Positions 11,450 to 47,400 of a DNA stretch of 64,000 nucleotides are shown in pieces. The translations under genes and the position numbers were made by a program. Position 1 is the stretch's first letter. Each line of letters opens with the position of its first letter. The notes beneath the pieces are model-generated. The model made no database searches, was not told where the DNA came from, and was given only the letters and a program-made list of their open reading frames with translations. This DNA is from an uncultured Bacilli bacterium (GTDB taxonomy: Bacteria; Bacillota_I; Bacilli_A; RF39; UBA660), in contig CAJTZU010000002.1 of NCBI GenBank assembly GCA_910584165.1, positions 141,811 through 205,810 on the forward strand. The letters run 5' to 3'.

Positions 11450-12085
11450 ATGAAATTAATTTCTATGAAAGAGTTAGATGATAGAATATTAGAAGAAGTA
11501 GCTTTAGCGGTCCAACAAGGAAAGGTAGTAATTTTTCCAACAGAGACTATCTATGGAATAGGTACTAATGCTTTTGATGAGAGTGCTGTAGAAAGAATTT
11601 ATAAGATAAAAGGAAGACCAGAACAAAAAGCTTTGATTGTATTAATTAATGACTATCAAATGTTAGAGCTTATTGCTTCTATTACTACAGATATAGAAAG
11701 AAATTTGATGAAGAAATTTTGGCCTGGCCCATTAACAATTATTTTTCAAAAAAAGAATATTAGTTGCCTTCCTGAAAATGTTACAGCAAGAAAAGATACA
11801 ATAGCAGTTCGGATGAGTGATAATGAAATTATAAAAAAGTTAATAGCGAAAAGTGGTGTTCCTATTGTTGCACCAAGCGCCAACCTGTCTGGTTCTTCTA
11901 GTGCTACTAAAATAAAAGAAATTATTTCTGATTTGGGGGAGCAAGTAGACTATATTTTAGATAATGGTGATATTAAGGATGAAACCCCCTCTACTATTGT
12001 AAAGGTAGAAAATGGAGAAATAAAAATCTTGCGAGAGGGGAAAATAAAAAAAGAACAACTATTTAATATGGAATCTATTAAATAG
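11450..12085 (+). CDS. tsaC: L-threonylcarbamoyladenylate synthase (TsaC/YrdC family)
   Basis: YrdC fold motifs VVIFPTETIYGIGTNAF and KIKGRP. 211 aa, the short TsaC type. Confidence 0.8.
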   Translation: MKLISMKELDDRILEEVALAVQQGKVVIFPTETIYGIGTNAFDESAVERIYKIKGRPEQKALIVLINDYQMLELIASITTDIERNLMKKFWPGPLTIIFQKKNISCLPENVTARKDTIAVRMSDNEIIKKLIAKSGVPIVAPSANLSGSSSATKIKEIISDLGEQVDYILDNGDIKDETPSTIVKVENGEIKILREGKIKKEQLFNMESIK

Positions 12086-14263: not shown

Positions 14264-14926
14264 GTGAAAGAATTAGAATTAGCGAAGATTTTATGGAATT
14301 ATTTATATTTAGGTGAAGAAATAAGAAAGTGTGATTGTATTTTAGGGCTTGGATGTTATGATTTGCACATTCCAGAAAAATGTGCACAACTTTATCATGA
14401 TGGTTATGGAAGCTTCATTATTTTTACAGGTGGGCTAGGAAAGTGTACAAATGGTGTTTTTAAAAAATCAGAAGCGGAAGTTTTTAGAGATATTGCTATT
14501 AATTTAGGTGTGCCAAAAGATAAAATTTTAATTGAAAATAAGTCGACAAATACAGGCGATAATTTTCGTTTTACAAAAGCATTAATAGAAGAAAAGAGAC
14601 TTAATGTCCATTCTTATTTGATTGTTCAAAAACCTTATATGGAAAGAAGAGCTTATGCTGCTTTTAAAGCAATTTTACCAACTGAAGAATGTAGTGTTAC
14701 TTCCCCAGATATTTCTTTTGAATCTTATTTTAAAGAATATGAAGACAGTAATGGCAGTATTAAAGAATTACTATGTGTGATGGTAGGAGATTTACAAAGA
14801 ATGAAAGTATATCCTTCTAAAGGATGGCAAATTGAACAAGATATTCCAATTACTGTATGGAGTGCCTATGAAGAATTAGTATCTATGGGATACGATAAAT
14901 ATGTGATTAAAGAAGAGTTGCAATAA
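14264..14926 (+). CDS. YdcF/DUF218 (SanA/ElyC-like) family protein
   Basis: GTG start after AAAGGGGA. DUF218 pattern CDCILGLGC...IIFTGGLG. Confidence 0.7.
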   Translation: MKELELAKILWNYLYLGEEIRKCDCILGLGCYDLHIPEKCAQLYHDGYGSFIIFTGGLGKCTNGVFKKSEAEVFRDIAINLGVPKDKILIENKSTNTGDNFRFTKALIEEKRLNVHSYLIVQKPYMERRAYAAFKAILPTEECSVTSPDISFESYFKEYEDSNGSIKELLCVMVGDLQRMKVYPSKGWQIEQDIPITVWSAYEELVSMGYDKYVIKEELQ

Positions 14927-14946
14927 ATAAAAAACTATGTTAGAAT
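14918..14946 (+). promoter_or_regulatory. Sigma-A-type promoter (TTGCAA-17-TAGAAT)
   Basis: -35 TTGCAA at 14918-14923, a 17-nt spacer, and -10 TAGAAT at 14941-14946. Sits just upstream of the leader-peptide RBS. Confidence 0.55.
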
Positions 14947-14976
14947 ACATTTACATTTAAACGAAGGAGGAATATT

Positions 14977-15021
14977 ATGAACCTAGTAATATGTGCTAAT
15001 AACCGTAGACGTAGCATCTAG
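14977..15021 (+). CDS. Leader peptide 1, MNLVICANNRRRSI (14 aa), with three consecutive Arg codons
   Basis: GAAGGAGG lies 6 nt upstream of the ATG. The stop TAG lies inside the left arm of a 10-bp stem. Confidence 0.55.
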   Translation: MNLVICANNRRRSI

Positions 15022-15063
15022 TACTTGTTTAAGCGAAAAGTGATTTCGTGGATACAAGTACTA
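15018..15063 (+). promoter_or_regulatory. Perfect 10-bp stem (CTAGTACTTGT / ACAAGTACTA) with a 25-nt loop that contains a nested CGAAA/TTTCG hairpin
   Basis: Direct inspection. Repeated at 15192-15237. Confidence 0.55.
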
Positions 15064-15100
15064 TTCGTCGTGCTTGTATCTAAGGTTTGTAATATGAAAA

Positions 15101-15132
15101 GACCTATGTGTACAAGCATGGGTCTTATTTTT
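15101..15132 (+). terminator. Attenuator terminator 1
   Basis: GACCTATG-TGTACAAG-CATGGGTC hairpin followed by TTATTTTT. The upstream segment GTGCTTGTA (15070-15078) is complementary to TACAAGCAT within this hairpin, giving an alternative anti-terminator pairing. Confidence 0.6.
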
Positions 15133-15150
15133 ATGGAAAGGAAGAATTGT

Positions 15151-15195
15151 ATGAAAAAACTAGTATATATAAATAACCGTAGACGCATCATCTAG
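15151..15195 (+). CDS. Leader peptide 2, MKKLVYINNRRRII (14 aa)
   Basis: Uses the duplicated RBS GGAAAGGAAG. Conserved core NNRRR(S/I)I. Stops at the equivalent TAG inside the second stem. Confidence 0.5.
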   Translation: MKKLVYINNRRRII

Positions 15196-15274
15196 TACTT
15201 GTTTAAGCGAAAAGTGATTTCGTGGATACAAGTACTATTCGTCGTGCTTGTATCTAAGGTTTAGAATATGAAAA

Positions 15275-15306
15275 GACCTATGTTACAAGCATAGGTCTTA
15301 TTTTTA
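15275..15306 (+). terminator. Attenuator terminator 2
   Basis: GACCTATG-TTACAAG-CATAGGTC perfect hairpin followed by TTATTTTT. Confidence 0.6.
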
Positions 15307-15323
15307 TAGAAAGGAAAAAAGAT

Positions 15324-16385
15324 ATGAAAAAAATAGAAAAAGAAATATTTTCTGTATTAAAAAAGTTTGTTTCATTTCCAACAATAGATGGAAATGAAGA
15401 AGAAATGAAGAAATTGTTAGAGTATGTAAAAACATTAGTACCTACAAATTTTATAGTGAAGGAATATTTATTTCAGACTAAACCAGTATTAGTAATCTCT
15501 AATACAGATTCTAAAGAGTTAGATATTGTTTTTTGTACTCATATTGATGTAGTACCCCATGAAAAGTATGAATTAGTTGAAAAAGATAATTTACTTTATG
15601 GGAGAGGCACTTTTGATATGAAGGGAGGGACAGTAGTTTCCTTACTCGCTTTATTAAATCAAGAGACTACTAAAAAGATAGGGATATTTTTAACGAGTGA
15701 TGAAGAAGTAGGTGGAAACTGCGTTAAAGAACTATTAAACATTTATCATCCTAAGTTTGGAATTATTCCAGATGGAGGTAATGATTTTCAATTAGTTAAG
15801 GAAGAAAAAGGAAGACTTTTATTGCAAGTTTCTATTTCCACAACTTCTTCTCATGCAGCAGAATTATATAAGGGTGAGAATGCTATTGCAACACTTTTCT
15901 CTGTTTATCAGAAATTATTAGAAAAATATCCAAATCCTACTTCTGATAAGGAATGGAAATCATCTATTTGCCTTACTCGTTTAGAAGGAGGAAAAGCTTT
16001 TAATCAAGTTCCTGATTATGCAGAAATGATTTTAGATATTAGAAGGATAGCAAGTGATTTTAAAATAGAATTTATAAATGCATTAAAGAAGATAGACTCT
16101 AGATTGAAAATAAAAGTATTAGCAAGTGAGACTCCATATTTAACAAATATAGAAAATGAAATGGTAAAAAAATTTTTACAATCTGTAAAAACCGTATTAA
16201 AAAAAGAAACTGTTATAACGCATTCTAATAGTACTTGTGATGGAATTTATTTTACTGAAAATGGAATTCCAACAGTATTGATGAATCCAACAGGAGGTTT
16301 TGCTCATTCTCCAAATGAGTATGTAGAAAAAGAGTCACTTCTTAAGCTTTATGAAATTTATATCAACTTTTTAAAAAATATGTAG
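15324..16385 (+). CDS. M20 family metallopeptidase / deacylase (ArgE/DapE-like)
   Basis: Motifs CTHIDVVP, GRGTFDMKGG and SDEEVGG (metal-binding His/Asp/Glu). 353 aa. Confidence 0.75.
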   Translation: MKKIEKEIFSVLKKFVSFPTIDGNEEEMKKLLEYVKTLVPTNFIVKEYLFQTKPVLVISNTDSKELDIVFCTHIDVVPHEKYELVEKDNLLYGRGTFDMKGGTVVSLLALLNQETTKKIGIFLTSDEEVGGNCVKELLNIYHPKFGIIPDGGNDFQLVKEEKGRLLLQVSISTTSSHAAELYKGENAIATLFSVYQKLLEKYPNPTSDKEWKSSICLTRLEGGKAFNQVPDYAEMILDIRRIASDFKIEFINALKKIDSRLKIKVLASETPYLTNIENEMVKKFLQSVKTVLKKETVITHSNSTCDGIYFTENGIPTVLMNPTGGFAHSPNEYVEKESLLKLYEIYINFLKNM

Positions 16386-16455: not shown

Positions 16456-17151
16456 ATGAATTATTTATTATCAAATGAGAAACCACAAATATCTATAACG
16501 GCAGGAAATACCTGTTATCAAGTAAGGTGTTTAAATCAAAGTGATTATAAAGCCTTTTCTGATATTATTAAAGAAGTATTTAGCCTACCACCTTGGGATG
16601 AAAAATTAACGGATGAGGAAGTTTTAGAAGAATTTGAGCATTGCACAAAAAATGGATTTATTTTAGGAGCTTTTACTATGAGTGGAGAATTAATGGGAAT
16701 AGCAGAATTTATTCATGAGTTTTTAGAGGCACATGTTCCTTTTATACCACTTCCATCTTGCTCAACAGATTCTACCTGGTATATTCATGGTTTGGCTACT
16801 TTGCCCAAATATAGAAGTAATCATGCTAGTAGTAATCAGCTTCATGTCTGCACTAATTTGGTTTATTATGGATTAAATTTTTGCCAAGCTCTTGCGCCTA
16901 ATAATAGCGATTATTGTTATTTTAGAATATCAGAGCATGGCTCTATGTCAAAGGGATTAGGAGAAAGACAGGGTTTTGTCCTTGTTAGAAAAGAAGGACA
17001 GATATCCCAACAAATTATTGACCCCACTCTTGATGACCCGTATAGAAATTTTATGATTAAAGATTTAAGAGTTCCCATGGAGTTAGCAGATTACAGTTTT
17101 ATGTATGAGACTCCTAAAAAATATTTAAAAGAAATAGCGCCTAGAAAATAG
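16456..17151 (+). CDS. Hypothetical protein, possibly a degenerate GNAT-like acetyltransferase
   Basis: LGAFTMSGELMGIAEF ... YIHGLATLPKYRS resembles GNAT motif A; weak. Confidence 0.45.
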   Translation: MNYLLSNEKPQISITAGNTCYQVRCLNQSDYKAFSDIIKEVFSLPPWDEKLTDEEVLEEFEHCTKNGFILGAFTMSGELMGIAEFIHEFLEAHVPFIPLPSCSTDSTWYIHGLATLPKYRSNHASSNQLHVCTNLVYYGLNFCQALAPNNSDYCYFRISEHGSMSKGLGERQGFVLVRKEGQISQQIIDPTLDDPYRNFMIKDLRVPMELADYSFMYETPKKYLKEIAPRK

Positions 17152-17221
17152 TTTTCACCTAAACATTAAAATGTTATAATAAAGAAAATAGAGTATCTGT
17201 TATGAAAATGAGGTGAAGTTC

Positions 17222-20200
17222 ATGGCTTATCGGTATCGAAGATATCAAATATTTAGAAAAAAGTTACCTGTACCAAAAGAAGTATTAAAACGTATTTATA
17301 ATAGAAAAGCAACTATAGAAGATATTATTCAATATGATTTAAAAGATAAAGTGCCTACAGATTGTTTAGACTATAAGTATAGTGAGATTTCTGCTATTGT
17401 TGGAATGGAAGTAGCAGTAGCTTTAGATTGGGATACGATTTTACCACTTCAATCTTATCAGTTATTAAATTGGTTTAGAAACAATAGTGCTTCTAGAGCA
17501 TTAGATTGGAATAACTTATTATATAAAACTATTAAAGAAGAGTATTTTAAAAATCTTTTAGATGGAGTTAGCTCTTATGATATGCTGATTTTTAAACTAA
17601 AAGATAGTTATTCTGATTTCCATTTTGAAAGATTAGGAGAAAAGTTTGAAAAAGCAGTGCCAGAACTTTTCTATGCAACTAGTAAAGAGGCAGCTAGTGA
17701 TTTGTTTTCTAAAAGATTTATGATTAATGACTATATAGAGCATTTTAAAGATTATGTGAAAGCTCCAGAGGATATTGTTAAAGATGCTTTTCAAAGTGAT
17801 GTAGATGTTAGGTTATATCAATTTTTAAATCCTTATTTAAAAAGCGGGAATACTTATGAAGAAGAAAAATTATTGGTTCAACTTGTTTTTAGTAGTAGAT
17901 ATCATTATGAATACGAAAAATATTTAGAAATATTAAATTTTAATCCCGGAATAAGTGCTCATGATTTTTTAGAAAAAGCTTGTTTGCAAAGAATAAAAGA
18001 ACAACATTGGCTAAAACCAAATTCTTACTATATTAGTAAGTATAATATGGGAAAAGAGCACAAGTTTTCTTTTGGGCAGAGTATCGATTATGACTCTTTA
18101 TCATTAGTAGATCAATATCCTGAGTATCGAGTTATTTTTTCACAGTTTTTAAATGGGACTTTGAAGTTTACTTCTTCTATTTCCGATTATGATAGTATAG
18201 AAGCTTATGTTGCTTACTTAATACTAGAATTTAATTTGGAATATGATGGAACTTTACCAGAAAAATTTAAGGAATTATATCCAGAACTTTTTATTACATC
18301 CGATTACAATTTAGCAGATGATTTTTACCGAAAAAAATTAACTCCAGAAATGATTCAAAAAAGACCAGTTTATGTTGAACTTTTAAAAGATAAAAAAGTT
18401 TTTCTCGGATTTAAGGAGCAGGATCTGGTAACATTCATTAAAGCTATTGGAAATGATAAGTTTTTTAAGTTTTGTTTAAAATATGGTTCTCATTTGGTTC
18501 CTGTTACTTTAGAAAATGAAAATCAGACTTATGAGGAAAGATTAGAACAAGAGATTATCGATAGTATTGTACAAGGAAAATGTAAGTATCAAGACTTAGA
18601 AGAGGTAGAAAGTATTACTTCTAAAATACCTAATTATTTTTTGGATAATAGTTTTCCAAAAGAATTAAGAGAGCTTTTTTATAGTGGAGAATTAACTCCT
18701 ATTCTATTAAAAAAAAACCAAAAATGGATTCATTTAATGAAAGATAAGGAGCTTTTTACAGCTTTACAATATCTTCACCGAGATTTATATACTGCTGTTG
18801 GAAAAGAGAATTTCTTGATGTTATGCCAAGGTTACGGAACAGTTATTTCAGATATGTATTTTTTTTCTTATCATTTTAAAGATATGTCAGTAGAAGAAAT
18901 TTTAAAAGAGATAGAGGATAAAATTTATAATCGTATCTATCTTTACCGCATCCCTTATGATGACGATATGCCTATTTCTTTTAAAGAAAAGTACCCACAT
19001 CTTTTTTTACCAGAAACGATTAGCGAGGAATTAAGAACAAAATTTTATAGCAGAGAATTAACTCCTTTAGATTTTGAAGAAAATGATTTTCTATTTTCTT
19101 ATTTTGAAAATCTAGATATTGCTTGTTATCTCAAAGAGGAATATCTTTGGCTAGTAGGAAAAGAATTGCAAAATAATAAAGAAAAATTAAAAATTGCAGC
19201 CTTCTATGGAAAAATTCATACGAAAGATCTTCAAGAAATATTTAAAAAAATTGTATTAGAAAATATTAGTACTCTTAATTTTGATAGAATAGATAATTTA
19301 GCTGATTTATTAGTTACACTTTCTTATTCTAATTCTGGTGAAATTAGAAAATGTAGAGCAGAGCTGGCTAATCAGTTAATCAATCTAGAGAATCCAAAAG
19401 AGAAGTTGGAAAGAATCGAAGATATTTTTTTGGCAAATAATCTTCCAACGGTTGGTAAAGTATTTTTAGTATTTCAAACTTTATATCCTGATTTTAGGGG
19501 ATTTGATTTTAGTGAAGATTCTAAAGTATCTCCAATTTTAAAAAGTAAAACAAACCGAAGTAGAGAAGTTATTATTTTTTCAGATTTATTAAAAATAGCA
19601 TTTGGCTCTAATAATAGGTCTATCAAATCTTATTTAGAAAATATTGAAAATGGCTATAGGACATTTTTACAAATTCAAAATGATCGAATTTCTTTAGAGG
19701 AGTTAGAAGAAAGTGAAAGAACTACTTTATCTATTTTTTTAACCCATTTAAATACTTTATATAATAATACAGAGAAAGGAAAAAAAGAGCCTCATAAATT
19801 ATCTAATGATATAAAAAGAGATGTTAATGATTTTGTATCTCTTTATGCAAGTAAAGAGTTGATAGATTATGATTTACCAGATAGAATTATTAAGATGTTT
19901 TGCCATTTTGCCGGTTTTGATAGTTTTGAAAAGGCAAAGGCGTATGCTACTCAAAAACCTATTTTAGCAGATCAAAGAAATAGAAAGTCTTCTAGAAATA
20001 GTTTTCAGTTAACGCAAGGTGATTTTATTAAAGGAATAAGAGATATTAAATATTTAAAGAGCATATTACAAAATGGTTCTTTAGCTGTAGAATTTTTAGG
20101 AGCTTCTGCTGATAAGGATAGCACACCATTAGATACAGATTTATCACGTATATTAAAAGTAGAAAATTCGATTAGTGAAACAGTTTCTAAAACAGAAGCA

Positions 20201-21451
20201 TCAGGTTATGGCTCTATTTATTTAATACTTAAAAATGATGATAGATTCTGTATTACTAGAAGAAGTTCTTCTGAAGAACAGGGTATAGATGAAGTAGATA
20301 TTAACAAGATAGAGGCATTTTATACAGGCGCTACAGGAAAAGATCATTACGGAATTCGCACTGGATTTGCTTCTTCTGAAATTGATTATATTATGACAAA
20401 AGAATATGATGAAAGAATAGGGTTAGAGATTGCCATGAATGGTTTTTATATTCCTGTTGTAGATACTTCTGGTAATTTGATATTTGCTCCAGAGGATTAC
20501 GATTCTTTAAGGAAAAAAATGTCAGGTTTATCTTATTTTGGAGAGAAAGAATATATATTTTCTCAAAATCTGCATTTTGATGGAATAGAAGAAGTAGTGG
20601 AATCTCTTTCTAGAAATGAAGAAGAGGCTCAAATGAAAAGAGAAGTCATAAATCAAAAGGTTTTAGAGGCAATTGATGAAGTGGGTTTGGGTCTTAAAAC
20701 TGTTATTGATGGAAACTTAAAAGAAGGTACTGTTGAACTAATCGATACTGGCTCAACTGGTCGTGGTACTAATTTACCTCAATCTGGAGATTTTGATTTC
20801 ATTATGAGATTAGATAAAAAAATAATAGCTGACACTCACAAAACGAAAATATTAAAAGAAAAAATATTGCAGAAATTGGGAAAAAATAATTTTAATATGA
20901 TAACGAATAGTGGCGATTTTAGATTAAAGGGTGTTCAATTAGAAGGTTTAGAACAAGCTATCGATATTGATATAACTTTTATTGAGAAGACTGATAAGAT
21001 ATCTTATTCTACTGATATGGCTTTAAGAGATAGACTATTTAGTATAAAAAAGCAAGATAAAAGCAAGTACTCTTTGGTTCTTGCCAATCTTTTGCTTGCT
21101 AAAAAGGTATTGAAAGAAGCTAGTGTTTATAAACCAAATCGTGGCGAAGTCGCGCAAGGTGGTTTAGGAGGAGTAGGAATAGAAAATTGGATTCTACAAA
21201 ATGGTGGCTCTTTTTTAGATGCTGCTAGTAGTTTTTTAGAAGCATCAGAAGGAAAAACTTTTCAAGAATTTAAAGCCCATTATAGTATTTGGGATTTTGG
21301 AGAAAATCATTTTACGGATAGAAATGGTGTTTATCCACATGATGAATTTGTTAGAAACAATATGAGCGAAGAAGGATATTTAAAGATGAAACAGGCACTA
21401 GAACATTATCTTAATCAGTTAGGATATTCTTTTAAAAAGAGAAGGAAGTAA
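17222..21451 (+). CDS. Giant protein (about 1410 aa) with a C-terminal Pol-beta-superfamily nucleotidyltransferase domain resembling cGAS/DncV/OAS-like enzymes
   Basis: GSTGRGTNLPQSGDFDFIM (a GS-x-RGT...[DE]h[DE]h motif) plus a third acidic cluster IDIDI about 53 aa downstream. The N-terminal 1100 aa have no known domain; three YP.LF...FY..ELTP repeats occur. ATG 17222 follows GAGGTGA; the track starts at GTG 17213. Confidence 0.65.
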   Translation: MAYRYRRYQIFRKKLPVPKEVLKRIYNRKATIEDIIQYDLKDKVPTDCLDYKYSEISAIVGMEVAVALDWDTILPLQSYQLLNWFRNNSASRALDWNNLLYKTIKEEYFKNLLDGVSSYDMLIFKLKDSYSDFHFERLGEKFEKAVPELFYATSKEAASDLFSKRFMINDYIEHFKDYVKAPEDIVKDAFQSDVDVRLYQFLNPYLKSGNTYEEEKLLVQLVFSSRYHYEYEKYLEILNFNPGISAHDFLEKACLQRIKEQHWLKPNSYYISKYNMGKEHKFSFGQSIDYDSLSLVDQYPEYRVIFSQFLNGTLKFTSSISDYDSIEAYVAYLILEFNLEYDGTLPEKFKELYPELFITSDYNLADDFYRKKLTPEMIQKRPVYVELLKDKKVFLGFKEQDLVTFIKAIGNDKFFKFCLKYGSHLVPVTLENENQTYEERLEQEIIDSIVQGKCKYQDLEEVESITSKIPNYFLDNSFPKELRELFYSGELTPILLKKNQKWIHLMKDKELFTALQYLHRDLYTAVGKENFLMLCQGYGTVISDMYFFSYHFKDMSVEEILKEIEDKIYNRIYLYRIPYDDDMPISFKEKYPHLFLPETISEELRTKFYSRELTPLDFEENDFLFSYFENLDIACYLKEEYLWLVGKELQNNKEKLKIAAFYGKIHTKDLQEIFKKIVLENISTLNFDRIDNLADLLVTLSYSNSGEIRKCRAELANQLINLENPKEKLERIEDIFLANNLPTVGKVFLVFQTLYPDFRGFDFSEDSKVSPILKSKTNRSREVIIFSDLLKIAFGSNNRSIKSYLENIENGYRTFLQIQNDRISLEELEESERTTLSIFLTHLNTLYNNTEKGKKEPHKLSNDIKRDVNDFVSLYASKELIDYDLPDRIIKMFCHFAGFDSFEKAKAYATQKPILADQRNRKSSRNSFQLTQGDFIKGIRDIKYLKSILQNGSLAVEFLGASADKDSTPLDTDLSRILKVENSISETVSKTEASGYGSIYLILKNDDRFCITRRSSSEEQGIDEVDINKIEAFYTGATGKDHYGIRTGFASSEIDYIMTKEYDERIGLEIAMNGFYIPVVDTSGNLIFAPEDYDSLRKKMSGLSYFGEKEYIFSQNLHFDGIEEVVESLSRNEEEAQMKREVINQKVLEAIDEVGLGLKTVIDGNLKEGTVELIDTGSTGRGTNLPQSGDFDFIMRLDKKIIADTHKTKILKEKILQKLGKNNFNMITNSGDFRLKGVQLEGLEQAIDIDITFIEKTDKISYSTDMALRDRLFSIKKQDKSKYSLVLANLLLAKKVLKEASVYKPNRGEVAQGGLGGVGIENWILQNGGSFLDAASSFLEASEGKTFQEFKAHYSIWDFGENHFTDRNGVYPHDEFVRNNMSEEGYLKMKQALEHYLNQLGYSFKKRRK

Positions 21452-41441: not shown

Positions 41442-44400
41442 GTGGCAAATAAATTAAGAAATATAACTGAACTTTATTCTGATACTTTAAAAGATATTAG
41501 CACGAATCCAAATGAATGGTTATCATTTTTAGAGTGTGCTGCAATGAACTATAAATATTCTTTCTCCGATCAAGTTCTTATATATGCACAAAAGCCAAAT
41601 GCAAGTGCTTGTGCAGAGATAGAAACTTGGAACAAGTCATTAAAAAGATGGGTAAATAAAGGAGCAACAGGAATTGCACTTCTTTCCGAAAATAATGGTA
41701 ATACCTATTTAAGGTATGTTTTTGATGTATCAGACACTAATAGTAGGCACGGAAAAAATATTGTTTTGTGGTCTGTTACAAAGCCTTATGAAGAATATGT
41801 CATAGAAGCATTAGAAAATAGATATGGCGAGTTAGAAGATAATTCAAATATCGCTCAAGCAATTATTTCTAGTGCTAATAATATGGTAGAAGATAACTTG
41901 CCAGATTACTTATCAAATTTGATGTACTTCCGTAATAATAGTTTTTTAGAAGAACTAGATGAGTTAAATGTTAGAACTATATACAAAGAGGCATTACAGA
42001 AAAGTGTTGCCTATGTTATGTTAAAGCGTTGTGGTATAAATCCTAACGATTACTTCGATAAAGAAGATTTTAGTATATTACTAAATTTTAATACCTATGA
42101 TACGATTACTAGATTAGGTATAGCGACAAGTGATATTGCAGAATCTGGACTTCGTGAAATTTATAGCACAATTAAAAATGTGCGAATGAGTGAAATTGAT
42201 AAAATTCACACATTTGATAATATAAGTCAAAACAATTATGATATAGATGATGGCAGAAATATTGCCGAAAGGAGTGATTTAGATGAATCAAATAACATAT
42301 CAAACAGTAGGAGATTATCAAATACCAGACCTAGTACCACCACAAGAACAACAAGTAAATGGGAAATACGCATTGATGAGGTTAAGCCACTTGAAGAAGA
42401 ACGACAAAGCCTTATACACGAGCCTACTAATGCAGGGCAAATTACCAGACCACTTGATGGAAATTCAAGCGACAGCCGAGATGAGAGTGGAACAAATGGT
42501 AGAGGAGATGGCGAAGAAAGAGAACATTACAGAGGAAATGAAAGCCAAGAATCCAATGAACTGGATAGGCTTAATGAACAACTTGAAGATGTCAGCAGAG
42601 GAGATAGTAGCGAAAGAACTAATTTACAGTTAGGGATTTATGAAGAAACAAGCGAGGGACATTATATTGTTCCAGATAATAAGATAAATCAAATCCTAGC
42701 ACAAGCCCAATTAAAAGTATCTAATAGTGAAATTAAGAAATACTTTGAAATTGAAAAAGATAGAAGTAAAAGAGCAGACTTTATAAAAAATGCTTATGAT
42801 AATACCTATACAGGAGTTCTTGTAAATGAAGAAATGTATGGATATAAAGCATTTGATAATGGTCTGCTTTTTTGGAAAGGTAATTTTTTAACAAAAGATA
42901 CTGAAATATTAGTTAGTTGGGAAGATTTAACGGATCACTATGATTCAATGATACTTTTACACCAACTTAATGATAGAGTAAAAAGACTTCCATCAGTAAA
43001 AGAGCAAATGTCTTTACTTGATGAAGAAAAAGATTTGCCAGAGTTAGAGTTTTCGCAGGAATTTGTTGATAAATTCTTTCAAGAGTGTCATACTGAAACA
43101 AAGTATAGAATATATCAGCAATTTCAAAGTAGTTTATCTACTACTGAAAATGTCAATTTTTTGAAAGATTTATATGGAATAGGTGGTAGTTCTCATACAA
43201 TTCGTGGCTCTGGAATAGGAGAAGAACACGACTCTAAAGGTATTACTTTATATCGTGGCTATTTTGATGGAAGAAAAGAAACTTTATTAAAATGGAACTA
43301 TGTAGAAAAAAGAATAAAGGAACTAATTAAAATTGATAGATACCTTAATCCTAAAGAGTTACAAGAATATCCTACTTGGCTAGAAAAAGAAAAACAACGC
43401 ATAGAGTTAATGGAACAAGAAAATCAAATTGAAGAAGTTATAGAAACTCCAGAAGATGTTGTTTTTGATTATAGATATAAAGTGGGCGACCAAGTATATA
43501 TTGGTGCAGATAAATTTGAGATAATAGCACTAGATAATGATATTGTTAGATTATATGACTATCAATATCCTTTATTTAATCAAGAATTATCATTTGATGA
43601 GTTTGATAGAAAAGTAAGAGAAAATCCGTGTAATGACCATCTAAAAGTAGAGATAGTTGTTACTGAAGAAAAAAATGATAGTTTTAGTGCAGTAGAATTT
43701 GAAAAACAATTCCCTCATAATATGCGTTTTAAAGAAACTTCTGTAATAGAAAATAATTTATATTGGGTAACGCAAGAATTATTTACAGAAAGTGATCTTT
43801 ATAAGTTTCAAGAAGCATTTAAAAAGACTAATTTTGAGAAAGCGTATGTTACTGTTAGAGATTTAAGTAATTATGTTTTTGAAGATGATTTATCTAAAAA
43901 TGTACTAGCAATAGTTACTAAAGATAGTATAAACTTTACAGGATATGTTGATTCTATAACAGAAGTATTTGGAAATGAAGCAAGTGATTATTTTGCTCAA
44001 AGAGAAGAAATAACACAACCAAACGAATATGGCGAATTTAATGATGAAGTAGATTTAGTAGAGCATATATTATCACTTTATAATATGAGTGACATAGCAG
44101 TCAACTTTAATTCTAATGAGAATATAGTTGCTTATGCAGATGATATGGATTTAGAGGGTATAGAAGTATATGACTTTCTTTTAAATCAATTATTTGAATA
44201 TAACGAAGATGGTACAGTTGATTTAGTTGATAATCACGATTTAGAAAGACTAAAAGAATATCGTAAAAAATACGAAACAAAAGTTGCCGACCAAGAAAAA
44301 TTAGAAGAAGATTTAATTGGTAAAAATATCACCATTGGCGATAGAGAATATATCATTGATAGTATTACTAATGATATAGTATCGCTAAAAGATGTAACTT

Positions 44401-47400
44401 TCCAAAATGGTGTAGGTTTTCCTATTTTCCGTGATGAAGAATTAAGTAATGTATTATCTATACTTGCTGAAAAGAAAGAAGAACAGAAAAAGGAAACAAT
44501 AATACCAAATATCGCTAAAAAGAGAAGAAACAGAGTTACTACTTTTGATACACACCCAGAAATTAAAAATGAAGATAGAAATAACTTCCATATTACTGAT
44601 GATATGTTAGGCGTTGGTAGTGATCGTGAAAAATTTAATCGTAATGTTGCAGCAATTAAAGTCTTAAAGAAATGTGAAGAAGAAAATCGATTTGCTACTC
44701 CAGAAGAACAAAAGGTATTATCACAATATATCGGTTGGGGTGGTTTATCACAAGCCTTTGAAGAAACAAGTTCGTGGGCTAATGAGCATTTAGAACTAAA
44801 AAATATTCTTGATGAAGAAGAATATAGGTCTGCTATTGAATCTACAAGAACATCATTCTATACTCCTCCAGTAGTCATTCGTACAATGTATAAAGCATTA
44901 GAAAGTATGGGAATGAGAGATGGTAATATACTAGAGCCTAGTTGCGGTGTAGGGAACTTCTTAGGTATGATACCAGATACTTTAAAAGACTGTAAGTTGT
45001 ATGGTATAGAAGTCGATTCAATAAGTGGTAGAATTGCTAGACAACTATATCAAAAGAGTTCTATTGCAGTACAGGGTTATGAAAATACAGAACTTCCAGA
45101 TTCTTTCTTTGATGGTGCTATTGGTAATGTTCCATTTGATAGTCTTAAATTATTAGATAAGAGATATGATAAGCATAATTTCTTAATTCACGACTACTTC
45201 TTTGCAAAAACTCTTGATAAAGTAAGACCGGGTGGAATTGTTGCTTTCATAACAAGTAAAGGTACTTTAGATAAAGAAAATCCAAGTGTTAGAAAGTATA
45301 TTGCACAAAGAGCCGACTTGTTAGGAGCAATAAGACTTCCGAATAATACCTTTAAAGACAATGCAGGAACGAAAGTTACTTCTGATATTATCTTCTTACA
45401 AAAACGAGATTCAATAACTGATATAGAGCCAGACTGGGTTTATTTAGATACTGATGAAAATGGTATTAAAATGAATAGATATTTTATTGATAACCCAGAT
45501 ATGATATGTGGCAATATGAAAATGGAATCTACGAGATTTGGTATGGACTCTACTTGTGAAGCAAGAGAGGATATATCACTAGAAGAACAACTTAACAATG
45601 CTATTTCAAATATACACGCTGAAATAAAAGAATATGAGATAGATGATATAGGAGAAGATGAAGAAGATTTATCTATTCCTGCTGATTATAATGTTAAGAA
45701 CTTCTCATATACCATTGTTGATAATAAAATCTATTATCGTGAGAATAGTAGAATGTATCCACAAGAATTACCACTTACTACTGAAAATCGTATTAAAGGC
45801 TTAATTGAAATACGAGAGTGTGTAAGAAATCTATTGGAACTACAAACAGAGGACTTTCCAGATGAAGATATAAAACAAGAACAAGTAAAACTTAATAAAC
45901 TGTATGATAGTTTTACAAAAAAATATGGACTTATCAATAGCAGAGCGAATACCTCTGCTTTTTCTAATGATAACAGTTTTTATTTATTATGTTCTTTAGA
46001 GATACTAGATGAAAACAAAGAACTTCTTAAAAAAGCAGATATGTTTACCAAAAGAACAATACTTCCCCATAAGGAAGTAACGAGTGTAGATACTGCCAAT
46101 GAAGCCTTAATTATTTCAATATCTGAAAAGGCTAGAGTTGATTTAGAGTTTATGCAGAAACTATGTGGGCTTGATATGGACAAAATGCTAACTGACCTAG
46201 AGGGTGTTATTTTCAATGTACCAGAATATGGAGATCCTAATATATGGGTAACTGCTGATGAATATTTATCTGGTAATATTCGTGAAAAATTAAAGATAGC
46301 GAAAGAGTTTGCAGAAGATGACCATAGATTCAATATCAATGTAAAATGTCTTGAAGAAGTAATGCCAAAAGATTTAGAGCCACAAGAAATAAGTGTTAGA
46401 CTTGGTGCAACTTGGCTTCCAACAGATGTTATAGATGATTTTATAGATTATCTATTATCGCCATCTAATAGCATTAAAGACAGTATAAAAGTGCATTTTA
46501 TGGAGAGTACAGCCCAATGGAATGTCGAGGGTAAAAACTATGATAGAAGAAATGTAAAAGCATATTCTACTTATGGAACAGGAAGAATCAATGCTTATAA
46601 AATAATAGAAGAAACACTTAATTTAAAAGATGTTAGAATATATGACTATATCGAAAAAGATGGTAAAAAAGTACCAGAGTTAAATAAAAAAGAAACTGCT
46701 ATTGCACAGGCAAAACAAGAGCAAATTAAAACTGCTTTTGATGAGTGGATATGGAGTGATATAGACCGTAGGGAAAGATTAAGTAAAATCTATAACGAGA
46801 AATTTAATTCTAATAGACCTCGTGAGTATGATGGCTCTCATATCAATTTTCACGGTATGAATCCAGAAATAACTTTACGACCACACCAAGTAAATGCAAT
46901 AGCAAGAATACTTTATGGAAATTCAAATACTTTGTTAGCACACGAAGTAGGAGCAGGTAAAACTTTTGAAATGGTCGCTGCTGCAATGGAATCTAAAAGA
47001 TTAGGGCTATGTAATAAAAGTATGTTTGTAGTGCCGAATCACATTGTAGAACAATTTAGTTCGGAGTTCTTGCAACTTTACCCAAGTGCTAATATTCTCG
47101 TTACCACGAAGAAAGATTTTGAAACGGCAAATCGTAAAAAGTTCTGTTCTCGAATAGCGACTGGAGATTATGATGCAGTAATTATTTCTCATAGTCAATT
47201 TGAAAAGATACCAATGTCTGCTGAAAGACAAAGAACTATCTTACAAAATCAAATTGATGATATAAGTATGGGAGTACAAGATTTAAAAGACCATAATGGC
47301 GAGAATTTTACTATAAAACAATTAGTAAGATTACAAAAAAGCCTTGAAGCAAAATTAGCAAAGTTAAATGATACAAGCCGAAAAGATGATGTTGTAACTT

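What the first reader, a model, noticed from the sequence alone, without database searches (positions are those of the whole stretch)
14918..15348. Tandemly duplicated leader-peptide attenuator with an NNRRR core upstream of an ArgE/DapE-family M20 deacylase
The leader region reads, in order:
- a good sigma-A promoter, TTGCAA-17-TAGAAT (14918-14946);
- GAAGGAGG plus a 14-codon ORF, MNLVICANNRRRSI (14977-15021), with three consecutive Arg codons (CGT AGA CGT);
- a perfect 10-bp stem (15019-15028 pairing with 15054-15063) whose left arm contains the leader's TAG stop;
- a segment GTGCTTGTA (15070-15078) complementary to TACAAGCAT inside the intrinsic terminator (15101-15132);
- the 174-bp unit repeated in tandem from 15175 (about 95% identity). 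The second copy encodes MKKLVYINNRRRII, which keeps the NNRRR(S/I)I core even though its N-terminus comes from a duplicated copy of the peptidase gene's RBS and start codon. It carries its own stem and terminator (15275-15306);
- the M20 gene itself, starting at 15324.

This is the architecture of ribosome-mediated transcription attenuation. The Arg-codon triplet suggests sensing of charged Arg-tRNA. The downstream ArgE/DapE-family enzyme is a plausible arginine-pathway deacetylase. Two attenuators in series would give a steep response. I do not know of a described arginine leader-peptide attenuator in Clostridia, so this may be new.
Basis: partly seen in the sequence, partly recalled or inferred. 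Interest (0 to 1): 0.8.

Follow-up and report, generated by a model that had tools for sequence, protein, structure and literature searches.

The report
Tandem arginine-codon leader-peptide transcription attenuators
Two back-to-back copies of a small RNA switch, each with a 14-codon mini-gene containing three arginine codons and its own terminator, sit upstream of a metallo-hydrolase gene in an uncultured gut Bacilli bacterium; the design is conserved in relatives and most likely turns the gene on when arginine-charged tRNA runs low, a specificity I could not find described for this classical mechanism.

Summary
Two tandem units (174-nt period) each carry a Shine-Dalgarno sequence, a 14-codon ORF ending NNRRR(S/I)I, a 10-bp stem that starts at the TAG stop, and an intrinsic terminator. 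The copies are 86% identical overall and 95.6% from NNRRR to the terminator.

- All 12 lineages of M20 orthologues at 41% identity or more carry such a leader. Three at 38% or less do not.
- The Arg run (3-6 codons; one lineage has RRTKR) is kept while its codons change synonymously, and Lys never replaces Arg.
- The first Arg codon lies 14-23 nt before stem P1. The stop lies in, after, or at most 8 nt before P1's 5' arm.
- Four roughly isoenergetic alternative hairpins exist (1:2, 2:3, 3:4, terminator), with covariation.

With a ribosome placed at the first Arg codon, all 18 units fold into P1 plus antiterminator. With a ribosome at the stop, all 8 units of the window's clade form the 2:3 hairpin, which frees the terminator.

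Not shown: arginine dependence in vivo, and any arginine role for the M20 enzyme (unassigned ArgE/DapE family, often paired with a GNAT-like gene). The host is Bacilli, not Clostridia. No Rfam family matches. I rate it a new member of a known kind.

The parts
14918..14946 (+). Promoter: -35 TTGCAA, 17-nt spacer with TG at 14938-39, -10 TAGAAT. It overlaps the stop codon of the upstream DUF218 gene.
   Evidence: Conserved in L001-L003. L004, L129, L132 and L137 have their own TTGACA/TTGAAA-type promoters in front of the leader.
14963..15021 (+). Leader 1: SD GAAGGAGG (14963-70) and the 14-codon ORF MNLVICANNRRRSI (14977-15021). Arg codons CGT AGA CGT at 15004-15012; TAG stop at 15019-21.
15019..15063 (+). 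Hairpin P1 (segment 1, 15019-28, pairs with segment 2, 15054-63) enclosing the inner hairpin P1a (15033-38 / 15044-49). dG -17.6 kcal/mol.
   Evidence: (I4). Covariation: helix 2 has 6 of 10 pairs with changes on both sides; helix 3 has 2 of 6.
15050..15081 (+). Anti-antiterminator hairpin 2:3 (GGATACAAGTAC 15050-61 pairs with GTGCTTGTATCT 15070-81). dG -16.3 kcal/mol. Mutually exclusive with P1 and with the antiterminator.
   Evidence: I12; 97.4% of cells paired across 18 units.
15071..15118 (+). Antiterminator 3:4. TGCTTGTA (15071-78) pairs with TACAAGCA (15111-18), and AGGTT (15083-87) pairs with GACCT (15101-05). dG -15.8 kcal/mol. It sequesters the terminator's 5' arm and loop.
   Evidence: (I7).
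15099..15132 (+). Intrinsic terminator 1: stem 15099-15126 followed by ATTTTT. dG -15.7 kcal/mol.
   Evidence: Covariation (helix 4: 98.3% paired, 5 of 10 pairs with changes on both sides).
15138..15195 (+). Leader 2: SD AAGGAAG (15138-44) and ORF MKKLVYINNRRRII (15151-15195). Arg codons CGT AGA CGC at 15178-15186; TAG stop at 15193-95.
15193..15306 (+). Second switch. P1 15193-15202 / 15228-15237; 2:3 hairpin 15224-35 / 15244-55; antiterminator 15245-52 / 15284-91; terminator 2 stem 15273-15299 plus a T tract running to 15306.
   Evidence: (I5, I8, I13, I14).
15324..16385 (+). Regulated gene: M20 metallo-hydrolase of the ArgE/DapE family (353 aa), subfamily unassigned, metal and catalytic residues intact.
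16456..17151 (+). Probable second gene of the operon: a 231-aa degenerate GNAT-like protein. No terminator lies between it and the M20 gene.
   Evidence: Adjacent to or overlapping M20 in the 5 fetched loci aligned with it: L126, L127, L129, L132, L137.

Best explanation
Each unit is a classical leader-peptide (ribosome-mediated) transcription attenuator whose regulatory codons are arginine codons. Two such units act in series in front of an M20 hydrolase (+ GNAT-like) operon.

Proposed working (steps 1-3 are shown by sequence, comparison or folding; steps 4-6 are inferred):
1. Transcription starts at the conserved extended -10 promoter, and the leader ORF is translated.
2. The RNA has five successive segments that can pair 1:2 (P1), 2:3, 3:4 (antiterminator) or 4:5 (terminator). 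In the window these hairpins are all about -15 to -18 kcal/mol.
3. The first Arg codon lies 14-23 nt upstream of P1. The stop codon lies within or after P1's 5' arm, or at most 8 nt before it.
4. When Arg-tRNA(Arg) is scarce, the ribosome stalls with the first or second Arg codon in its A site. Its leading edge (about +12 nt) stops short of segment 1. P1 then forms, segment 3 stays free and pairs with segment 4, the terminator cannot form, and RNA polymerase reads on.
5. When arginine is plentiful, the ribosome runs to the stop codon and covers segment 1. Segment 2 pairs with segment 3, the terminator forms, and transcription ends at about 15132 (copy 1) or 15306 (copy 2).
6. Because both attenuators must be read through, output goes roughly as the square of the single-unit read-through. 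This gives low basal expression and a steeper response.

In some lineages the untranslated leader can also pair the Arg-codon region with segment 3 ('P0'), which would give termination when no ribosome is present. For the window itself this third state is uncertain.
For: Conservation:
- 12 of 12 independent lineages of M20 orthologues at 41-100% identity have an SD-preceded leader ORF with an Arg run. Three orthologues at 33-38% identity (L134, L135, L142) have none.
- The leaders are NNRRRSI, NNRRRII, NIRRRRRRVLV, NMRRRLRVLVETI, NNRRRFS, NNRRRRYTLHLKKR, NIRRRRYRRHLRTR, NIRRRLK, MNRRRRF, NIRRRYLLTLVK, ERRRYK, and one with IRRTKRNTC.

Coding-level selection:
- The Arg codons differ between lineages (CGT AGA CGT; AGA CGC CGA; CGC AGA CGC; AGA AGA CGC; AGA CGA AGA; CGA AGA AGA CGC), while the rest of the peptide and its length vary freely.
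- Lys never replaces Arg in the first three positions, even though the window's genome is 29% G+C and its relatives are likewise A+T-rich.

Geometry: the distance from R1 to P1 is 14-23 nt in all 18 units. The stop lies at -8 to +18 relative to the start of P1.

Structure:
- P0+P1+P1a+terminator: 90.5% of cells are paired, against 29-45% for slid controls. 17 pairs change on both sides, and 0 of 500 shuffles reach the observed values.
- The 2:3 helix is 97.4% paired. Where segment 2 changes A to G together with segment 1 (UA to CG in P1), the unchanged segment 3 keeps pairing through G-U (AU:12, GU:6). This is the signature expected of a segment that has two partners.
- In diverged lineages (L130, L132, L138) the antiterminator is kept through different sequences.

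Folding with a ribosome mask:
- Stalled at R1: P1 plus antiterminator in 18 of 18 units.
- At the stop codon: the 2:3 hairpin in 12 of 18 units, including all 8 units of the window's clade.

Specificity: no other copy and no other RRR mini-ORF exists in the window. No Rfam family matches, so this is not a T-box or a known riboswitch.
Against: - There is no experimental evidence for termination, read-through or arginine dependence.
- The organism is uncultured.
- The regulated M20 enzyme cannot be tied to arginine. It scores below the curated cut-offs of ArgE, DapE and every other NCBIfam model. No arg genes lie within 2.5-3 kb in any locus. The GNAT partner shows no ArgA signature.
- With the ribosome at the stop codon, equilibrium folding still favours the antiterminator in 6 diverged lineages (L129, L004, L127, L139, L141, L130). 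With no ribosome it gives mixed outcomes. The model therefore relies on co-transcriptional kinetics, which I could not simulate.
- One lineage (L138) has RRTKR rather than RRR.
- An Asn one or two codons before the run is frequent. This could hint at a peptide-level effect, although pairing of AAC/ATC with the 3' flank of segment 3 (P0) explains part of it.
- From my own knowledge: in Bacillus subtilis transcription outruns translation (Johnson et al. 2020). That makes classical attenuation less expected in Bacilli unless RNA polymerase pauses.
Confidence: 0.7

Rival explanations
1. Drug-inducible attenuator. The RRR run acts as a macrolide-type R/K-x-R/K arrest motif, as with the RYR leader of B. 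subtilis tlrB/yxjB or ErmDL. A tunnel- or PTC-binding antibiotic, not arginine supply, would stall the ribosome and induce an M20/GNAT detoxification pair.
For: - RRR matches the R/K-x-R/K motif. A Bacilli precedent exists that combines a 9-aa leader, an intrinsic terminator and a stall at RYR (PMC6851288).
- The GNAT partner gives faint matches to AAC(3)-I, streptothricin and arsinothricin acetyltransferases (E 7e-6 to 0.009, far below cut-offs).
- The M20 enzyme has no demonstrable arginine role.
Against: - Lys never substitutes for Arg at R1-R3 in 12 A+T-rich lineages. Runs reach 4-6 Arg, and some leaders have further Arg downstream, which is typical of starvation-sensing codon runs and unnecessary for a +x+ motif.
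- M20 hydrolases and this GNAT type are not known macrolide resistance determinants (my own knowledge).
- A +x+ stall would put R3 in the A site. In the window's clade that would already cover 3-4 nt of P1.
- The leader follows the M20 gene, not the GNAT gene, which is absent from L130, L138, L139 and L141.
Confidence: 0.1
2. Same hardware, different sensing. The nascent peptide ending in N-x-RRR arrests the ribosome in response to a small molecule such as free arginine (like fungal AAP, TnaC or SpeFL). Read-through would then be induced by excess ligand, for example for a catabolic or detoxifying enzyme, rather than by starvation.
For: - An Asn one or two codons before the run is common, and hydrophobic residues precede it.
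- The regulated enzyme is a hydrolase of unknown substrate rather than a recognisable biosynthetic gene.
- Ligand-sensing arrest peptides are known in bacteria (PMC8429421, listed).
Against: - Outside the Arg run the peptide is poorly conserved. The length before R1 varies from 6 to 10 residues, which is too short and too variable for a tunnel-sensing arrest peptide.
- The Asn codon is partly explained by RNA pairing, with covariation (AAC/GGTT, AAT/GATT, ATC/GGGT).
- Run length varies from 3 to 6.
Confidence: 0.07
3. Opposite sign. The ribosome stalled in the Arg run (especially at R3) covers segment 1, so starvation causes 2:3 pairing and termination. Rapid release at the stop codon frees segment 1, so plentiful arginine gives P1 plus antiterminator and read-through.
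For: - With no ribosome, equilibrium folds give P1 plus antiterminator in 10 of 18 units, including both window copies.
- In the window's clade R3 lies only 9 nt before P1.
Against: - Under starvation the first stall is at R1, whose leading edge (+12) falls short of P1 in every unit (distance 14-23 nt).
- The stop codon is always placed so that a terminating ribosome covers P1's 5' arm. That placement would have no purpose under this model.
- In five lineages the untranslated leader pairs the Arg-codon region with segment 3 instead.
Confidence: 0.08
4. A translation-independent RNA switch (a riboswitch or an RNA-binding-protein site). The mini-ORF would be incidental.
For: - The core sequence TGCTTGTATC and the P1/P1a hairpin are highly conserved.
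- Folding z-scores are about -4.
Against: - SD, ATG, reading frame and the Arg run are conserved in 12 lineages, with synonymous codon turnover.
- The invariance of segment 3 is explained by its need to pair with two partners.
- There is no conserved ligand-pocket-like junction.
- No Rfam match: only DUF3800-I at 22 bits against a gathering score of 44.2, E about 2.
Confidence: 0.05

Closest known systems
Classical leader-peptide attenuators of amino-acid operons (E. coli/Salmonella trpL, hisL, leuL, thrL, ilvL, pheL)
   Same: - A short SD-preceded ORF with a run of codons for one amino acid.
- Overlapping alternative hairpins ending in an intrinsic terminator.
- The ribosome's position (stalled in the run, or at the stop codon) selects antiterminator or terminator.
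   Different: - The regulatory codons are arginine codons.
- There are five segments (1:2, 2:3, 3:4, 4:5) rather than four; the his leader, with six, is the nearest in layout.
- The host is a Bacilli lineage, where T-boxes are the usual RNA-level amino-acid sensors (PMC1262725).
- The regulated gene is an unassigned M20 hydrolase, not a recognised biosynthetic operon.
- Two complete attenuators stand in tandem.
Salmonella speF leader orf34 (two consecutive Arg codons)
   Same: Ribosome pausing at consecutive Arg codons under low arginine redirects the folding of the downstream leader RNA (PMC6386406).
   Different: In speF the outputs are Rho-dependent termination, RBS unmasking and RNase G sensitivity, not an intrinsic terminator/antiterminator pair. 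It has a 34-codon conserved ORF, occurs in Enterobacteria, and shares no sequence similarity.
Staphylococcus aureus rbfL leader peptide
   Same: A leader peptide in Bacilli that senses arginine limitation through Arg codons (an RKR motif using AGA/AGG) (PMC13009471).
   Different: rbfL acts on translation: the paused ribosome occludes the downstream RBS and represses it. The present element has terminators and an antiterminator, and is predicted to induce on starvation. It uses CGY plus AGA codons.
B. subtilis tlrB (yxjB) RYR leader and other macrolide-responsive leaders (ErmDL)
   Same: A very short leader peptide with an R-x-R motif near its C-terminus, an intrinsic terminator in the leader, and a Bacilli host (PMC6851288).
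   Different: The stall there depends on a bound macrolide, and the regulated gene is an rRNA methyltransferase. Here the run is pure Arg, 3-6 codons long, never contains Lys, and precedes a hydrolase.
Arginine-specific T-box leaders of Firmicutes
   Same: They sense tRNA(Arg) charging and control an intrinsic terminator in the leader of Arg-related genes.
   Different: T-boxes bind the tRNA directly and need no translation. Neither the T-box model nor any other Rfam family matches here.
Tandem attenuators and riboswitches (Salmonella mgtCBR mgtM/mgtP; tandem T-boxes and TPP riboswitches)
   Same: Two regulatory units in series in one leader (PMC3641672, listed).
   Different: In mgtCBR the two ORFs sense different signals. 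Here the two units are near-identical duplicates (95.6% in the core) kept alike by concerted evolution.

Membership tests
Ribosome-mediated (leader-peptide) transcription attenuator | Short ORF with a Shine-Dalgarno sequence in the 5' leader, conserved as a coding unit | tested here: met
   SD plus ATG ORFs of 11-20 codons in 12 lineages; synonymous variation in the Arg and Asn codons.
Ribosome-mediated (leader-peptide) transcription attenuator | Run of regulatory codons for one amino acid | tested here: met
   3-6 consecutive Arg codons in 11 of 12 lineages (RRTKR in L138). These are the only such mini-ORFs in the 64-kb window.
Ribosome-mediated (leader-peptide) transcription attenuator | Intrinsic terminator between the leader ORF and the structural gene | tested here: met
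   Stems 15099-15126 and 15273-15299 with T tracts. 98.3% of cells paired, 5 covarying pairs.
Ribosome-mediated (leader-peptide) transcription attenuator | Mutually exclusive antiterminator, with the choice set by ribosome position relative to the first hairpin | tested here: met
   The 1:2, 2:3 and 3:4 pairings overlap. Masked-ribosome folding: R1 stall gives the antiterminator in 18 of 18 units; the stop gives 2:3 in 12 of 18. Geometry is conserved. This is in silico only.
Ribosome-mediated (leader-peptide) transcription attenuator | Read-through depends on leader translation and on the supply of the cognate amino acid | not testable with these tools
   Needs Term-seq, reporter fusions or in vitro coupled assays.
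Ribosome-mediated (leader-peptide) transcription attenuator | Regulated genes belong to the metabolism of the sensed amino acid | tested here: inconclusive
   The M20 enzyme is in the ArgE/DapE family but below every curated cut-off. The GNAT partner is unassigned. No arg genes lie nearby.
Acetylornithine deacetylase ArgE (NCBIfam TIGR01892 equivalog), for the downstream enzyme | Score at or above the curated equivalog cut-off | tested here: not met
   99.9 bits against a cut-off of 297.7. The broader TIGR01910 DapE-ArgE model gives 154.9 against 217.6. The best PDB relative is an uncharacterised M20 (2rb7, E 3.6e-20), then E. coli ArgE (4.8e-11). Catalytic His/Asp/Glu-Glu/His are present.
Macrolide-type R/K-x-R/K arrest leader | A +x+ motif with Arg and Lys interchangeable, upstream of a resistance gene | tested here: not met
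   The motif is formally present, but Lys never occurs at R1-R3. The downstream genes are not known resistance types.
T-box riboswitch or any Rfam 15 family | Match to the covariance model at the gathering score | tested here: not met
   No hit at gathering score anywhere in the window. The best local hit is DUF3800-I, 22 bits against 44.2, E about 2.3.

The most novel reading that the evidence does not exclude
The Arg-codon attenuator marks the M20 hydrolase (with its frequent GNAT-like partner) as an unrecognised arginine-starvation response of uncultured gut Bacilli. Two versions are possible: a salvage route that frees arginine or ornithine from acylated or peptide-bound forms, or a defence against arginine antimetabolites or ArgRS inhibitors that lower tRNA(Arg) charging. 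It would also be a natural example of classical, translation-coupled attenuation, duplicated in tandem and held alike by gene conversion, in a class of bacteria thought to rely on T-boxes because transcription outruns translation.
Probability: 0.2. Interest if true: 0.75.

Novelty: new member of a known kind. Interest (0 to 1): 0.6.

Why it matters
- Classical attenuation is textbook for Trp, His, Leu, Thr, Ile/Val and Phe. I found no described arginine-specific terminator/antiterminator attenuator in Rfam 15 or in the searched literature.
- A 2005 comparative survey lists arginine as regulated at the RNA level by T-boxes. The Arg-codon sensors I did find, Salmonella speF orf34 and S. aureus rbfL, act by other outputs.
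- If confirmed, the element adds a new specificity. It would also show that some Bacilli use translation-coupled attenuation for amino-acid sensing.
- It offers a compact natural two-stage switch of about 170 nt per unit.
- It gives a regulatory handle for assigning a function to a family of M20/GNAT genes known only from gut metagenome-assembled genomes.

Tried and rejected
- **Rfam.** The permissive local scan gave only chance-level hits: DUF3800-I at E about 2 on both copies, snoZ122 and others. The whole-window scan at gathering score gave nothing. I rejected T-box, known riboswitch and known leader families.
- **Metagenome pattern scan.** An nhmmer profile of the leaders found no true member among the stored loci (L006-L125).
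- **Tandem Repeats Finder** does not report the 174-nt duplication.
- **First ribosome-mask folding**. I cut the transcript before the last three antiterminator bases (GCA) and allowed the SD region to pair. This blurred the states for the window's copies. Redone with the correct 3' end.
- **Antiterminator and P0 columns.** Alignment-column tests for these fail in the five most diverged lineages, because their pairings use different registers. I used per-sequence duplex and MFE analysis instead. By shuffling, antiterminator duplex z-scores are weak (-1 to -1.6) in the window's clade and stronger (-2.5 to -4.8) in diverged lineages. That test also omitted the GCA bases.
- **ArgA/ArgE reading of the GNAT + M20 pair.** Not supported by family models.
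- **Upstream ATG at 15094.** This in-frame start would extend leader 2. It is not conserved in L001-L003, so I rejected it.
- **Other copies.** A search for further copies or other RRR mini-ORFs in the window found none.

Full report
**1. What is in the window**

- A promoter-like TTGCAA-17-TAGAAT with an upstream TG lies at 14918-14946. The simple scan finds no more promoter-like sites in this region than chance would give.
- Leader 1 has SD GAAGGAGG (14963-70) and a 14-codon ORF MNLVICANNRRRSI (14977-15021). Its Arg codons are CGT AGA CGT (15004-12).
- The TAG stop opens a perfect 10-bp stem, P1 (15019-28 with 15054-63), which encloses a small hairpin, P1a (15033-38 / 15044-49).
- Downstream lies an intrinsic terminator (stem 15099-15126 plus T tract). 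The whole arrangement then repeats: ORF MKKLVYINNRRRII at 15151-15195 and a terminator at 15273-15299.
- The M20 gene starts at 15324.

The repeat period is 174 nt. Identity is 86.2% over the whole unit and 95.6% from the NNRRR codons to the T tract. The SD and first codons of copy 2 match those of the M20 gene (87% over 53 nt).

Across both strands of the 64-kb window, these are the only SD-preceded mini-ORFs with three consecutive Arg codons. No further copy of the motif exists.

**2.

Segment 2 extended (GGATACAAGTAC, 15050-61) pairs with segment 3 (GTGCTTGTATCT, 15070-81) (I12).

Segment 3 in turn pairs with the 5' arm and loop of the terminator. TGCTTGTA pairs with TACAAGCA (15111-18), and AGGTT pairs with GACCT (I7/I8).

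The leader is therefore a chain of mutually exclusive hairpins. Energies are for copy 1, with copy 2 in brackets where it differs:

| Hairpin | dG (kcal/mol) |
|---|---|
| 1:2 (P1) | -17.6 |
| 2:3 | -16.3 |
| 3:4 (antiterminator) | -15.8 (-14.6) |
| 4:5 (terminator) | -15.7 (-15.2) |

Near-equal energies are what a kinetic switch needs. The Arg-codon region (AACCGTAGA) can also pair with the 3' flank of segment 3 (TCTAAGGTT). This extends P1 into a long hairpin, P0, and adds about -10 kcal/mol.

**3. Related loci**

A genome scan with the M20 protein, followed by look-ups of metagenomic homologues, gave 15 independent loci.

- All 12 lineages whose M20 is 41-100% identical carry the element directly upstream of M20. 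In L132 it is upstream of the GNAT-M20 pair.
- The three most distant lineages (38%, 38%, 33%) have no leader.
- The record titles call these genomes uncultured Bacilli, mostly from gut samples. They are not Clostridia.
- The window's closest relatives (L001, L002, L003; 74-84% M20 identity) have the same two-copy arrangement. More distant lineages have one copy. L139 has in addition a degenerate second unit.

Leader peptides:

| Locus | Leader peptide(s) |
|---|---|
| window | MNLVICANNRRRSI / MKKLVYINNRRRII |
| L001 | MNKLVCVNNRRRSI / MKKLVCINNRRRSI |
| L002 | MNQVVCVNNRRRSC / MKKLVCVNNRRRSC |
| L003 | MNLVVCANNRRRSI / MKQLVCANNRRRNI |
| L137 | MNHIYSLNIRRRRRRVLV |
| L126 | MNQFVVKNMRRRLRVLVETI |
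| L129 | MKLFQTIINNRRRFS |
| L004 | MNSFIMNNRRRRYTLHLKKR |
| L127 | MSLFMTNIRRRRYRRHLRTR |
| L139 | MKNNIMNIRRRLK |
| L141 | MNKYSMNRRRRF |
| L130 | MKNFINIRRRYLLTLVK |
| L132 | MQYYIERRRYK |
| L138 | MINLTQIRRTKRNTC |

Only the Arg run is constant, and its codons turn over (CGT/CGC/CGA/AGA in different orders). The conservation is therefore at the level of 'arginine', not of nucleotides.

Lys never replaces Arg in the first three positions. The window's genome is 29% G+C, and AGA makes up 67% of its Arg codons, CGT 15% and CGC 2%. The window's leaders thus use mostly the minor CGY codons.

As a rough estimate from base composition (my own calculation), a random RRR occurs about 1e-4 per codon position. 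Twelve independent occurrences at a fixed place cannot be chance.

**4. Conserved geometry**

The first nucleotide of the first Arg codon lies 14-23 nt before the first paired base of P1 in all 18 units. The stop codon lies between 8 nt before and 18 nt after that base.

A ribosome protects about 12 nt beyond the first base of its A-site codon; this is established toeprint geometry, the +16 toeprint cited. A ribosome waiting for Arg-tRNA at the first or second Arg codon therefore leaves P1 free. A ribosome at the stop codon covers P1's 5' arm.

**5. Covariation**

These tests use the 18-unit alignment A2.

- For P0+P1+P1a+terminator, 90.5% of cells are paired, against 29-45% when partners are slid by 1-3 columns. 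17 pairs show changes on both sides, and 0 of 500 shuffles reach the observed values.
- The terminator is 98.3% paired, with 5 of 10 pairs covarying.
- The 2:3 helix is 97.4% paired. At the position where P1 switches from U-A to C-G in six units, the same segment-2 base (A to G) keeps its bond with the unchanged segment-3 U as G-U (AU:12, GU:6). That pattern is expected if segment 2 really has two alternative partners.
- Segment 3 (TGCTTGTATC) is nearly invariant. This fits its need to pair with both segment 2 and segment 4.
- Where segment 4 has diverged (L130, L132, L138), the antiterminator is restored by different sequences.

**6. Folding with the ribosome in place**

I removed the RNA behind the ribosome's leading edge and ended the transcript just after segment 4, before the rest of the terminator's 3' arm. 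The minimum-energy folds were as follows:

- Ribosome at the first Arg codon: P1 plus antiterminator in 18 of 18 units.
- Ribosome at the stop codon: the 2:3 hairpin in 12 of 18 units, including all eight units of the window's clade.
- No ribosome: the long P0+P1 hairpin, with no antiterminator, in five lineages (L137, L126, L138, L141, L132). Ten units, including both window copies, gave P1 plus antiterminator.

The 'starved' and 'replete' states are therefore well supported. The behaviour without translation is uncertain for the window. Six diverged lineages would need kinetic trapping of the 2:3 hairpin. Two earlier versions of this analysis were confounded by a truncation that removed the last antiterminator bases.

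**7. Most likely mechanism**

Low charged tRNA(Arg) stalls the ribosome in the Arg run. P1 forms, the antiterminator forms, and transcription reads through.

Plentiful arginine lets the ribosome reach the stop. P1 is melted, 2:3 forms, the terminator forms, and transcription ends.

Two units in series multiply their read-through probabilities. That step is inference.

Shown here: the parts, their conservation, the covariation, and the fit of the geometry to the model. Inferred: the actual stalling, the termination, and the arginine dependence.

**8. Rivals**

- *Macrolide-type arrest leader.* B. subtilis tlrB has a 9-aa leader ending in RYR in front of a terminator (PMC6851288), and RRR fits R/K-x-R/K. 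Against this: Lys is absent from the run in A+T-rich genomes, runs reach up to six Arg, and the downstream genes are not of resistance type.
- *Ligand-sensing arrest peptide.* This is unlikely, because nothing but the run is conserved and the N-terminal length varies from 6 to 10 residues. The frequent Asn codon before the run is partly explained by covarying RNA pairing.
- *Translation-independent riboswitch.* This is contradicted by the conserved SD, ATG and reading frame with synonymous codon change, and by the lack of any Rfam match.
- *Reversed sign.* This conflicts with the placement of the stop codon and of the first Arg codon.

**9. What is regulated**

The 353-aa product is an M20 metallo-hydrolase with a dimerisation domain. 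Its catalytic and metal-binding residues are intact in alignments to DapE and ArgE.

It scores below all curated family cut-offs: TIGR01910 gives 154.9 against 217.6, and ArgE TIGR01892 gives 99.9 against 297.7. Its nearest solved relative is an uncharacterised M20 (2rb7). E. coli ArgE comes next, at E 4.8e-11.

In the five fetched loci aligned with the window's copy (L126, L127, L129, L132, L137), the M20 gene abuts or overlaps a 213-251-aa GNAT-like gene. The window's copy (16456-17151) is degenerate (Pfam E 0.1), and no terminator separates it from M20. The GNAT profile matches only generic N-acetyltransferases.

No arg genes lie within 2.5-3 kb in any locus. A link to arginine is therefore plausible only through the leader itself.

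**10. History of the duplication**

In the four two-copy genomes, the 5' parts (SD to about codon 8) group by position. Copy 1 is 78-95% identical to copy 1 across genomes. Copy 1 is only 62-73% identical to copy 2 within a genome.

The cores behave the other way. They are more alike within a genome (94.6%, 97.7% and 96.9%; 88.5% in L003) than between genomes (86-93%).

The duplication therefore predates these species, and the cores have been homogenised by gene conversion. This argues that both copies are maintained.

Copy 1 and all single-copy leaders begin MN... (or MS, MK, MQ, MI). Copy 2 begins MK(K/Q)L, like M20's MKK. This fits a duplication running from about leader codon 4 to about M20 codon 3.

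**11. Comparison with known systems, and novelty**

The element works like, and meets the sequence-level criteria of, a classical leader-peptide attenuator.

I found no arginine-specific example in Rfam 15 or in the paper library. A 2005 comparative survey lists arginine as regulated by T-boxes at the RNA level (PMC1262725).

The Arg-codon-sensing leaders I did find act differently. Salmonella speF orf34 works through Rho, RNase G and RBS structure (PMC6386406). S. aureus rbfL works by translational occlusion (PMC13009471). Tandem attenuators are known for mgtCBR, but there they have two different sensors (PMC3641672).

I therefore rate this a new member (new amino-acid specificity, new host group) of a known kind, with a tandem-duplicate twist. 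The library does not cover subscription journals fully, so an earlier description cannot be excluded.

Noticed in passing
window 16456-17151: The 231-aa ORF after the M20 gene has no significant Pfam hit. It aligns with partners of M20 in five other loci that do hit GNAT acetyltransferase models, so M20 + GNAT-like looks like a recurrent gene pair of unknown function. The pair is reversed in L132 and absent in L130, L138, L139 and L141.
   Followed up: partly
L139 2349-2485: Between the attenuator's terminator and the M20 gene lies a second, degenerate unit. It has SD + ORF MLYIFVRRFYHLR, a P1-like stem (CTTGTACT/AGTACAAG) and a 13-bp GTGTGCTTGTACT/AGTACAAGCACAC hairpin, but no T tract. It may be a decaying duplicate or a translational variant.
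   Followed up: no
L130 2860-3000: After the attenuator's terminator there is a near-consensus promoter-like site (TTGACT-17-TATAAT) and another small ORF before the M20 start. In this lineage M20 may have acquired its own promoter downstream of the attenuator.
   Followed up: no
L003 1440-1500 (compare window 14870-14946): L003 lacks the upstream DUF218 gene but keeps a remnant of its last ~50 nt together with the TTGCAA-17-TACAAT promoter that overlaps its stop codon. This suggests the promoter is the selected feature.
   Followed up: partly
window 14998-15132 vs 15172-15305, and L001-L003: The two copies show concerted evolution. Their cores are more similar within a genome (95-98%) than between genomes (86-93%), whereas their 5' ends group by copy position. 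This implies gene conversion after an ancestral duplication.
   Followed up: yes
window 15025-15030 and 15199-15204: TTGTTT at the end of P1's 5' arm matches the TTNTTT motif of NusG-dependent pausing in B. subtilis (recalled from the literature, e.g. PMC6851288). A pause here could synchronise RNA polymerase with the leader ribosome. The motif is present in the window's clade and in L137 but not in all lineages.
   Followed up: no
L127 1083-5906; window 11450-12085: In L127 the leader-M20-GNAT unit is inserted between tsaE-tsaB-rimI and tsaD (t6A tRNA-modification genes). The window has a Sua5/TsaC-family gene about 3 kb upstream. This may be coincidence.
   Followed up: no
window 1-64000: No Rfam family at gathering score and no tRNA gene anywhere in the 64 kb. 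There are several very large ORFs (17213-21451, 1412 aa, without any Pfam hit; 41442-49337, 2631 aa). G+C is 29%.
   Followed up: no
L003, L004 (contigs CAZRIC010000198.1, CAZHBS010000019.1): These contigs are deposited in MAGs labelled Muribaculaceae (Bacteroidota). They carry the low-G+C Bacilli-type locus, so they were probably mis-binned.
   Followed up: no
window 15094-15195: An ATG at 15094, inside the antiterminator/terminator region of copy 1, is in frame with leader 2 and preceded by AAGG. It would give a 33-aa extension. It is not conserved in L001-L003, so it is probably meaningless.
   Followed up: yes
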